The notes beneath the pieces were generated by a model. It was not told the origin of the DNA. It did no database searches and saw only the letters and a program-made list of their open reading frames with translations. From the NCBI GenBank assembly GCA_023213395.1, contig CM041465.1:212419741-212483740 (forward strand): a DNA stretch of 64,000 nucleotides. The letters run 5' to 3'. Shown here piece after piece: positions 47,990 to 50,148 of the stretch (position 1 is its first letter; the number at the start of each line of letters is the position of its first letter). The position numbers and the translations under genes are program-made. Source of the DNA: Cycas panzhihuaensis. Its lineage: Eukaryota; Plantae; Cycadophyta.

Positions 47990-48568
47990 TTGGAGATTAC
48001 CTTCTATTTGCAATCGTTGTACTGCCTGTTGATGGCATAGTACATATCTAGGCCGGAAACGTGTTACAGAGATGGCGATCTTCAGCACAAGTAAAGCAAA
48101 ACCTAAGGTCGATGCATCCTTTGAGCCCCTCCAGATCGACGTCGGTCAGGATCCTCGCCCTATGTGCTGTGTCTTCGCAGTCCAAGATGCTTCTACTCAC
48201 GGCCCTGCCCTTCCACGCCTCTTCTCGAGACGAATCATTCAATCACGAGCACTGCAGTCTATGACTTCCTTTCTTGCCTGCTCTAATTCCTGGATGACGA
48301 CCACTGATATCGACGCTCTCAGATTGATTTGAGCCCCCAGATTGCCCCGATTGAGGAGATTCTCCGGCTACGCCTGTCGCTGCGGGCGGTGCATTCTTGT
48401 TAACCGAAGTGGCTGGTAATATTTTAGGAGGAGACAAATCCTCCTCGGCCTGCAATAGAGACTCAGACCTCGTTTAACTTTTGATTTGTTGTGATTATAG
48501 ATAGGCCAGCATTTGGTGGACTGATAATTCATATTCAGATTCGATACCTCATTTCGATCGTCCAACAT
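47990..48568 (-). pseudogene. Captured DUF1685-family host gene fragment (two exons, 98-nt intron)
   Basis: REEAW...LTDVDLEGLKGCIDLRFCF...LCNTFPA, then after a 1-nt shift DMYYAINRQY, matching the DUF1685 core as I recall it (LTDxDLxELKGCxDLGFGF...LCNTLPALxLYYAV). Exon 1 MLDDRNE 48568-48548; GT...AG intron 48547-48450; exon 2 joins in frame (AEEDLSPPK); TGA at 48245-48243 where W is expected. Confidence 0.85.
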
Positions 48569-48778
48569 ATTCTTTGTCTTGTCGTGGGATCGATTAGAGA
48601 GAAAGGAAGGTCCAAGTTACCATGAGAAAATATCACACATTGTTGGTGGAAGATGGATCGTTGTACACTTGTGGTTGAAGTATATGTGGAGTATTGACTT
48701 GTGTCGAGTTTACATTGGGTTTGAGTGTTACTCATGCTCTCATAATCACGTTGCTTTTGTGATTCAGACTGGAGAAGT

Positions 48779-48790
48779 GTTTATATATAG
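48779..48790 (-). promoter_or_regulatory. Candidate TATA box of the captured gene
   Basis: ctatatataaac on the minus strand, ~210 nt upstream of the ATG at 48568. Confidence 0.45.
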
Positions 48791-50148
48791 AGATAACTTT
48801 TCCCTTTGTTATGATCATAGAGAAGTAGGTTGTGTCATTTTCAAACTTGTAGGAGTTGAAGCACTAAAGGGGATCCTTTGCAATAAGTTGCTACAAGCCT
48901 CAGTTTCACACTCACACCTACAAGGCATAGACAATTTTACACTTATGGTAGCAACTCGCATGGCTTAGAGAGACCTATTCCAAGGAAGATAGAAAGGTTC
49001 AATAGTCTCGACTTTGTCATCTCAAATACTATAGAAAGTTGTCAACCAAGGCTTGCAATGACTACTCTCGTGCATCTCCATGTACAGAAAGAAATGCTTC
49101 AATAAGGCTTCAGGTATTTTTTTTAGGTCTTAAAGATTGTTTGATAAATTGGCCGGGCCTACAAGGAGAACTCTGTCTTTTTTTATCAAGGCTCAATTGG
49201 TGTATATATATCTAATCCTTTACAAATTTCGAGTTTATTATTGTCCTTAGCATCGGTCTATTAAGTGAATCTCATATGAGGTCCTTTTAAGTGACTTCAT
49301 TATCAGTGATGAAGTAATGCCTCAATGATAATCGAGAAGCAAAGGAAGATTTTGATCAAAATTTGATTGATAGTAAGAAAAAAAAAAGAAAAGAGACAAA
49401 CTATTTGGTAGAAATGTTTGACTTGTCATAAATTTTGGTTAATATTCTCTTGCTTATTGAGCTAGAAGACATTATTATTTTTGTACCGGAAAAGAATGAG
49501 TTTTGGTTAACAGATATTCCTCAAGCCTGATCCAAGTATATTTGAACTAATTTTTATATTTGGAAAATTAAGATGGAATGTATATTCATGCTAAAGAAAC
49601 TTTGGAAGATAATTATGGGTACTGAAATAGCTCATGAAGAAGCGGAGAAAACTTTCAAAAAGAAAAACAGAATAGCCATTGACGTAATACTTGCAGCCTT
49701 TAATAAGAACAATCTTACTTATTCCTATCACTTCCTTATATATGCTATTCAAAGTACCAATTCAGCCAAGAACGTCTGAGAACTGCTGACAGAAGTACAA
49801 GAAAATGGACCTAAAGAAGTGCAAAGGAGTATCAAAAGGGAAAAGAACCAAAGGAAGAAGTTAAAAAGGAAAACTAAAATTTAGCTTGATTCTGGTAAGG
49901 ACAATCGTTATGAACAAGAGTCTGATAATTTTTTCCTAAAATCTAATGAAAATTTGAGTGCACCAAATAACCTGAGCCTCACCAAGATGACAATAAACTT
50001 CACATCTGGGATTGCTAAAAGAGTGGAAGTTGAAGAGCCTGAACCACAATCTTTATAGGTAATTGTTCATGGAGACACATGCATACTGACAGAAGGTATG
50101 TGCAACATTGTCCTAGTTTGTGTTGACAAGTTAGTAGCCAGAATTTAA

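What the first reader, a model, noticed from the sequence alone, without database searches (positions are those of the whole stretch)
47990..48800. LTR element captured an intron-containing DUF1685 host gene, with promoter, in antisense
Seen: between the PBS and the gag remnant of element I, on the opposite strand, lie a TATA-like box, a leader, exon 1 (MLDDRNE), a 98-nt GT-AG intron and an exon 2 with the DUF1685 core. The conserved C-terminal WAQAVA motif is not visible. Established: introns in antisense orientation survive retrotransposition because they are not spliced from the element RNA. Inference: this is transduction of genomic sequence rather than a processed retrocopy. LTR-driven transcripts would be antisense to the parent gene and could generate siRNAs against it.
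Basis: partly seen in the sequence, partly recalled or inferred. Interest (0 to 1): 0.8.

Follow-up and report, generated by a model that had tools for sequence, protein, structure and literature searches.

The report
Retrotransposon carrying two host gene scraps
A crippled plant jumping gene carries broken pieces of two unrelated host genes, one backwards and one forwards, likely picked up one after the other; the supposed promoter is part of the second gene and the supposed intron is likely not real, so this is an ordinary case of a known kind of gene-fragment capture.

Summary
The element is real (LTRs 46801-47172 and 51070-51441, 5-bp TSD, Met-type PBS, weak Copia gag remnant, no pol), and so is the antisense DUF1685 match (Pfam E=1e-9). 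The gene model around it mostly fails. The 'TATA box' and most of the 'leader' lie inside a second cargo: a plus-strand RCC1-repeat gene fragment (48610-49021, tblastn E=1e-23) that runs without introns across two positions where angiosperm orthologues appear to have them. Contigs from other organisms break off at about 48003 and 48480, bracketing the DUF1685 coding piece, and again at 48543-48573, so 'exon 1' and two thirds of the 'intron' travel with the RCC1 module in sister copies that lack DUF1685. DUF1685 genes examined have one intron, near the C-terminus, beyond the captured piece. The piece is a pseudogene here (two stops, frameshift, internal deletion) and appears as one contig per run. 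The donor locus and RNA were not seen, so a real intron is not excluded (about 15%). Verdict: a Bs1-like multi-gene mosaic in a pol-less, TR-GAG-like element of a probable gymnosperm; common in conifers. Low interest.

The parts
46796..46800 (.). 5-bp target-site duplication, left copy (right copy 51442-51446)
   Evidence: identical 5-mers flank the LTRs
46801..47172 (+). 5' LTR, 372 nt, TG..CA
   Evidence: 29 of 372 differences to the 3' LTR, K2P 0.084
47173..47184 (+). primer-binding site, initiator-Met type, degenerate
   Evidence: sequence directly after the LTR; tRNA type recalled, not tested
47185..48003 (.). unassigned leader/patchwork; 47850-48003 is shared at about 85-89% with contigs that continue into non-DUF1685 sequence after 48003
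   Evidence: pieces X1#1, X7#20; loose ends at 48003 in 1 X1 and 2 X7 contigs; no credible Pfam or PDB hit
48004..48479 (-). captured DUF1685 5' coding fragment, pseudogenised (stop 48243-45, frameshift 48050/51, stop 48004-06, in-frame deletion after the REEAW motif), ends mid-CDS
   Evidence: Pfam PF07939; tblastn Taxus P0001 aa 1-142 to 48371-48001, E=5e-17; boundaries from contig breakpoints
   Evidence: pieces X1#4, X1#5, X1#6, X4#14, X4#15, X7#22, X7#23; piece X2#11; no Pfam hit
   Evidence: tblastn Populus P0005 aa 114-272, E=1.4e-23; phmmer hits; Pfam of the hits; codon view
49546..49716 (+). Copia-type gag remnant
   Evidence: Retrotran_gag_2 E=0.006, DUF4219 E=0.031, both below cut-off
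50149..50784 (+). 211-codon open frame of unknown kind; the region is shared by many family contigs
   Evidence: no Pfam hit
51061..51069 (+). polypurine tract
51070..51441 (+). 3' LTR, 372 nt

Best explanation
This is a pol-less Copia-type LTR element whose PBS-to-gag interval holds broken fragments of two unrelated host genes, a sense RCC1-repeat piece and an antisense DUF1685 piece, likely added one after the other, with the DUF1685 piece likely the latest and likely free of any intron or promoter. Shown: the element, both fragments, their orientation, their lesions, and contigs of sister copies that share the flanks but not the DUF1685 piece. Inferred: the RCC1 piece passed through a spliced RNA (taken from mRNA by template switching, or spliced later in the element's own transcript); the DUF1685 piece then replaced other sequence between about 48003 and 48480 in one sub-lineage. 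Because it is antisense it cannot have come by a plain switch onto the mRNA; I favour a template switch onto a co-packaged RNA that already read the gene backwards (about 55:45 over DNA repair patching). It was little amplified afterwards and is decaying.
For: RCC1 identity and strand. No intron at GE|VF or KQ|VA, where predicted angiosperm isoforms depart from the full protein. Breakpoints at 48003 (3 contigs, 2 runs; their loose ends resemble each other) and 48480/81 (3 contigs, 3 runs) bracket the DUF1685 piece, and the 48003 break coincides with the end of DUF1685 homology at 48001. Further breaks at 48543, 48562, 48573 cut 'intron' and 'exon 1'. Single intron at SPG|D in 8 of 9 transcript/genomic pairs, 4 of which span the start codon; the ninth pair showed no gap; Araucaria P0064 also departs there. 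One contig per run over the DUF1685 core in X1, X3, X4, X7, against up to 7 contigs at 47903 and 48625. Those contigs have a single gap each, so they share the window's short REEAW-to-RAVSRS spacing (2 residues; 13-26 in the 13 of 60 homologues that have the motif): element-borne copies, not the donor.
Against: The AG|GTAT donor with in-frame ATG has only a 4.3% chance rate and the acceptor looks canonical. The donor gene was not seen: no genome held, and only 47-52% of X1, X2, X7 was read. Breakpoint contigs are short (68-657 nt), 84-91% alike and from other organisms; sisters could have lost DUF1685 rather than lacked it. RCC1 intron positions come from predicted angiosperm isoform ends, not from a gymnosperm gene; 7 contigs (X4 3, X7 3, X8 1) depart at 48649 instead, which may be a gymnosperm intron or another junction. 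The 9 DUF1685 pairs stand for only a few genes of non-conifer lineages. The capture route is not observed.
Confidence: 0.72

Rival explanations
1. One reading: a genomic DUF1685 piece (48004-48609, with exon 1, intron and about 40 nt of 5' UTR but no promoter) was captured in antisense, and sister lineages later replaced exon 2.
For: Good donor and acceptor, 98 nt, 63% AT, phase-0 join open; strong-donor chance rate 4.3%; the N-terminus is too variable to exclude it by homology (both readings score 34).
Against: Needs at least three separate replacements in sisters (48480, 48543, 48562) that all remove exon 2; no N-terminal coding intron in 4 of 4 informative pairs; intron is A-rich (36% A, 28% T); no joint in any run laid, all contigs.
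Confidence: 0.15
2. The DUF1685 piece begins with the 3' tip of a real donor intron (48450-48479) or was patched into this one integrated copy by DNA break repair and never retrotransposed; the mosaic is then partly DNA-level.
For: Canonical-looking acceptor; antisense orientation; one contig per run; replacement without a clear target duplication.
Against: 48450-48473 is open in frame, and X1 and X7 read an in-frame ATG at 48473-71 (row 48472), though that may be parallel CpG decay; copy number cannot be read from contig depth.
Confidence: 0.1
3. The LTR element is incidental and the region is a functional or recently functional DUF1685 gene.
For: CpG o/e 0.89 against 0.22 for the window; the frameshift and the 48004 stop are absent in the contigs of X1, X4, X7.
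Against: Lies between matched LTRs with a TSD; lacks the conserved C-terminus everywhere in 47173-49400; shared internal deletion; upstream is RCC1 debris.
Confidence: 0.03

Closest known systems
Maize Bs1 (as described in PMC13317346, section 5 read; PMC5131818, passages)
   Same: LTR element carrying partial, non-full-length segments of several unrelated host genes
   Different: Bs1's pieces form a transcribed, translated chimeric ORF; here the two pieces face opposite ways, are broken, and form no ORF
LTR-mediated retrocopies (Tan et al. 2016, PMC5131818, passages)
   Same: internal host-gene pieces between element sequence; two or more parents; intron loss (RCC1 piece, inferred)
   Different: one piece is antisense; microsimilarity at junctions could not be scored without the donors
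Gene-fragment capture by Sireviruses in maize (bioRxiv 10.1101/777037, passages) and by TEs in gymnosperms (PMC13477047, abstract, section 12, passages)
   Same: Copia-type carrier; 15% of capturing Sireviruses and 13.68% of capturing TEs hold two or more fragments; no orientation bias in Sireviruses; mostly single-copy after capture (71.2%); first and second exons preferred; about 400,000 captured fragments per gymnosperm genome
   Different: PMC13477047 found no overall methylation drop in carrier TEs, whereas this cargo keeps its CpGs; carrier here is pol-less
TR-GAG elements (PMC4350172, passages)
   Same: LTRs, PBS, PPT, 5-bp TSD, Copia gag (PF14223) and no pol domain detected
   Different: 4641 nt (over the 4-kb limit), gag broken and weak, host cargo between PBS and gag; the word gymnosperm does not occur in that paper's main text

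Membership tests
LTR element with captured host-gene fragments (Bs1 type) | cargo lies between the two LTRs of one element with a TSD | tested here: met
LTR element with captured host-gene fragments (Bs1 type) | fragments of host genes, partial, from one or more donors | tested here: met
   DUF1685 and RCC1 family
LTR-mediated retrocopy (Tan 2016) | introns of the parent are lost | tested here: inconclusive
   RCC1 piece contiguous at two positions inferred from angiosperm isoforms; gymnosperm gene not seen; DUF1685 piece spans no known intron
LTR-mediated retrocopy (Tan 2016) | microsimilarity at fusion points | not testable with these tools
   donor sequences not obtained; only 30-letter loose ends
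LTR-mediated retrocopy (Tan 2016) | co-transcription from the LTR | not testable with these tools
   no RNA holder listed
TR-GAG | LTRs, PBS, PPT, 5-bp TSD | tested here: met
TR-GAG | no protease, integrase, RT or RNase H | tested here: met
   0 of 41 stop-free pieces of 49300-51069 and 0 of 75 of 47173-49420 hit a pol domain
TR-GAG | gag similarity (paper's HMM threshold 1e-5) in one ORF | tested here: inconclusive
   PF14223 E=0.006, frame interrupted by stops
TR-GAG | length at most 4 kb | tested here: not met
   4641 nt; not filed as a member, only TR-GAG-like
DUF1685 (PF07939) gene | score above Pfam cut-off | tested here: met
   38.4 bits vs 21
DUF1685 (PF07939) gene | intact ORF with C-terminal ISSPG..WAQ region | tested here: not met
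   stops, frameshift, truncation
   RCC1 coding sequence on the other strand
   parent not found; homologues lack it in 4 of 4 informative pairs; breakpoints cut it

The most novel reading that the evidence does not exclude
A high-copy, pol-less gymnosperm LTR family uses its PBS-gag interval as an exchangeable cargo slot, and this copy's DUF1685 cargo has shielded the 5' half from methylation decay, leaving an active 5' LTR that makes antisense RNA against the DUF1685 donor and has been kept as one copy in several related organisms.
Probability: 0.1. Interest if true: 0.55.

Novelty: new member of a known kind. Interest (0 to 1): 0.25.

Why it matters
As it stands it is one more of the very many captured fragments in gymnosperm genomes, useful mainly as a worked example: sister contigs let the order of additions be read, and a processed sense piece sits beside an antisense piece in one element. 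It would matter more if the spared CpGs and the lopsided LTR decay reflect real escape from silencing, since evidence that capture benefits the carrier is described as not yet convincing in bioRxiv 10.1101/777037 (passage read).

Tried and rejected
Own genome: none held, so no BLASTN for the donor or sibling copies. Sequencing runs: no RNA holder listed; X8, laid in the hope that it was RNA, has 2 contigs on 48475-48697 and none on the DUF1685 core, and no joint; no evidence either way on expression or splicing. X2 shows no contig on 48139-48480 but only 47% was read. Word-based protein search with the 64-aa core found 0 of 9 candidates; with the 133-aa read-through 1 of 20. Metagenome scan: 36 DUF1685 loci, best DNA match to the element 75% over 122 nt, none the donor. 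Other pieces of the interval stayed unidentified: 3 weak Pfam hits besides DUF1685 and RCC1_2 among 75 pieces, PDB searches blank or weak; bacterial lectin hits for 49006-49212 had no significant stretch and were set aside. The protein atlas gave no result. The promoter scan is bacterial and irrelevant. An early idea that the RCC1 piece is spliced at 48649, or joined by splicing at 48609|48610, was left open: both junctions have a second reading. One X3 contig ends at a PstI site (48252); not used. Contig depth was not used as copy number. The Bs1 primary paper was not held. Literature searches listed nothing on this element or on DUF1685 capture; of the 12 DUF1685 papers only the listing was seen; supplements were not opened and those of PMC13477047 (donor-gene tables) may bear on it.

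Full report
The carrier. LTRs of 372 nt lie at 46801-47172 and 51070-51441, with TG..CA ends, the same 5-mer on both outer sides, a Met-type PBS (type recalled) and a polypurine tract. They differ at 29 of 372 sites (K2P 0.084). A weak Copia gag remnant starts at 49546 (PF14223 E=0.006); none of 41 stop-free pieces of 49300-51069 hits a pol domain. The element is the only copy in the window. In three large DNA runs of other organisms the summed contig depth on the LTR is in the tens of thousands and on gag in the thousands or more, so the family is abundant (depth is not a copy number). The nearest DUF1685 proteins are from Cryptomeria and Taxus, so the host is probably a gymnosperm (inference).

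The observation. The piece is broken by a stop at 48243-45, a frameshift at 48050/51 and a stop at 48004-06, and it ends in mid-coding sequence; the conserved C-terminus is nowhere in 47173-49400 (60 homologues).

The promoter and leader. On the plus strand, 48610-49021 matches a plant RCC1-repeat protein in three successive frames: PDB search top 6 of 19 hits are RCC1-like repeat proteins (best E=2.7e-7); the full HMMER scan gave 7 hits, the 6 examined all RCC1 family; Populus P0005 aa 114-272 aligns at E=1.4e-23. The TATA-like box at 48781-89 is the decayed codons of one RCC1 repeat. Predicted isoforms of the angiosperm orthologues depart from the full protein at three points (GN|MQ, GE|VF, KQ|VA), the usual sign of introns (inference). 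The window's piece starts at the first and runs through the other two without interruption, so it has likely passed through a spliced RNA. Against this: no gymnosperm gene was seen, and 7 contigs in 3 runs run through the first point and depart at 48649, which is either a gymnosperm intron that the window also lacks or another mosaic junction.

The intron. Some ATG..GT model upstream of this AG arises in 88% of 5000 resamples, one with a strong donor in 4.3%, so the pattern alone is suggestive at most. Three lines go against it. (1) Contigs 84-89% alike match 47850-48003 and then run off (1 in X1, 2 in X7, with loose ends that resemble each other), and others match from 48480/81 rightwards into the RCC1 piece with foreign sequence on the left (X1, X7; X2). 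These two breaks bracket the DUF1685 piece, and the left one falls where homology ends. (2) More breaks at 48543, 48562 and 48573 cut the donor site and 'exon 1' (26 of 70 pieces and 20 of 42 loose ends were shown). (3) In 8 of 9 transcript/genomic pairs from metagenome loci the gene has a single intron at SPG|D, beyond the captured part; 4 pairs span the start codon and show none there; the ninth pair has no gap (few distinct genes, none known to be conifer). The last 24 nt of the 'intron' are open in frame, and X1 and X7 read an ATG there (row 48472), though that site is a CpG and may have decayed twice.

Distribution. The DUF1685 core is covered by one contig in each of X1 (97% alike, 47920-48614), X3 (98%), X4 (97%) and X7 (92%, 47975-48655), by none in X2 (47% read) and X8, while neighbouring modules have up to 7 contigs. 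The contigs of X1, X4, X7 lack the frameshift and the 48004 stop, but have only that one gap, so they share the window's 2-residue spacing after the REEAW motif, where the 13 of 60 homologues with the motif have 13-26. They are therefore likely copies of this mosaic, orthologous or sibling, and the donor was not seen.

Mechanism. Shown: two donors, opposite strands, shared flanks with other inserts in sister contigs. Inferred: stepwise build-up; RCC1 earlier and processed; DUF1685 last, replacing other sequence in one sub-lineage; little amplification since. A plain minus-strand switch onto mRNA gives sense cargo (established retroviral model, PMC5131818 passages), so the antisense piece needs an antisense-reading RNA or DNA repair; I lean 55:45 to the former and cannot test it. 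Term note: read-through transduction as defined in PMC13317346 (section 5 read) takes flanking sequence and does not by itself explain two internal donors.

Comparison. Multi-gene cargo in LTR elements is known from Bs1 (PMC13317346 section 5; PMC5131818 passages). In maize Sireviruses 15% of capturing elements hold two or more fragments, orientation is unbiased, most donors are in one element, and siRNA cross-talk is documented (bioRxiv 10.1101/777037, passages). Gymnosperm TEs hold about 400,000 captured fragments per genome (PMC13477047, abstract and section 12). The carrier resembles TR-GAG (PMC4350172, passages) but fails the length limit. An earlier AI note on a fish element with three stepwise captures (e1-8169284) is a parallel only.

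Left unexplained. 21 of 26 LTR transitions leave the G or C in the 5' LTR (p=0.0025), and the DUF1685 piece keeps CpG at o/e 0.89 against 0.22 for the window, while the X7 run shows mostly C>T and G>A changes on this stretch. The 5' half may have been spared methylation in this lineage; this is the basis of the novel case and is untested.

Verdict: real capture, wrong gene model, ordinary kind. Interest 0.25.

Noticed in passing
window 4850-9332 (minus strand): A second, young pol-less-looking LTR element (223-nt LTRs, 3 differences, 5-bp TSD, Met-type PBS, DUF4219 E=0.0014 at 5927-6124) with the same layout: a 2.9-kb interval between PBS and gag that keeps CpGs at 7800-8999. Of 60 pieces of the interval only one gave a Pfam hit (PDZ_6, E=0.004, 8393-8521), not confirmed in PDB. 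Possible unrecognised cargo.
   Followed up: partly
window 46420-46800, 51442-51740, 59130-59720: One 21-nt tandem array appears split into three parts by two LTR insertions: this element and another at about 51744-59155 (repeat pair 86% alike, PBS-like motif near 51988).
   Followed up: partly
window 46000-46360: Decayed sequence just before the array resembles the end of a Gypsy integrase (recalled resemblance, not tested), so the array may belong to an older host element.
   Followed up: no
window 50149-50784 (+): 211-codon open frame of unknown kind downstream of gag, in a region shared by many family contigs; no Pfam hit.
   Followed up: partly
window 46801-47172 vs 51070-51441: Lopsided LTR divergence: 21 of 26 transitions are G>A or C>T towards the 3' LTR, 17 of 21 in CHH context.
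   Followed up: partly
window 47882-47936: A 55-nt block shared by several contigs with other flanks on both sides: perhaps a third captured piece; unidentified.
   Followed up: partly
window 10576-11421 (-): Two adjacent reverse-transcriptase pieces (RVT_1, E=6.7e-15 and 1.4e-8) of another element.
   Followed up: no
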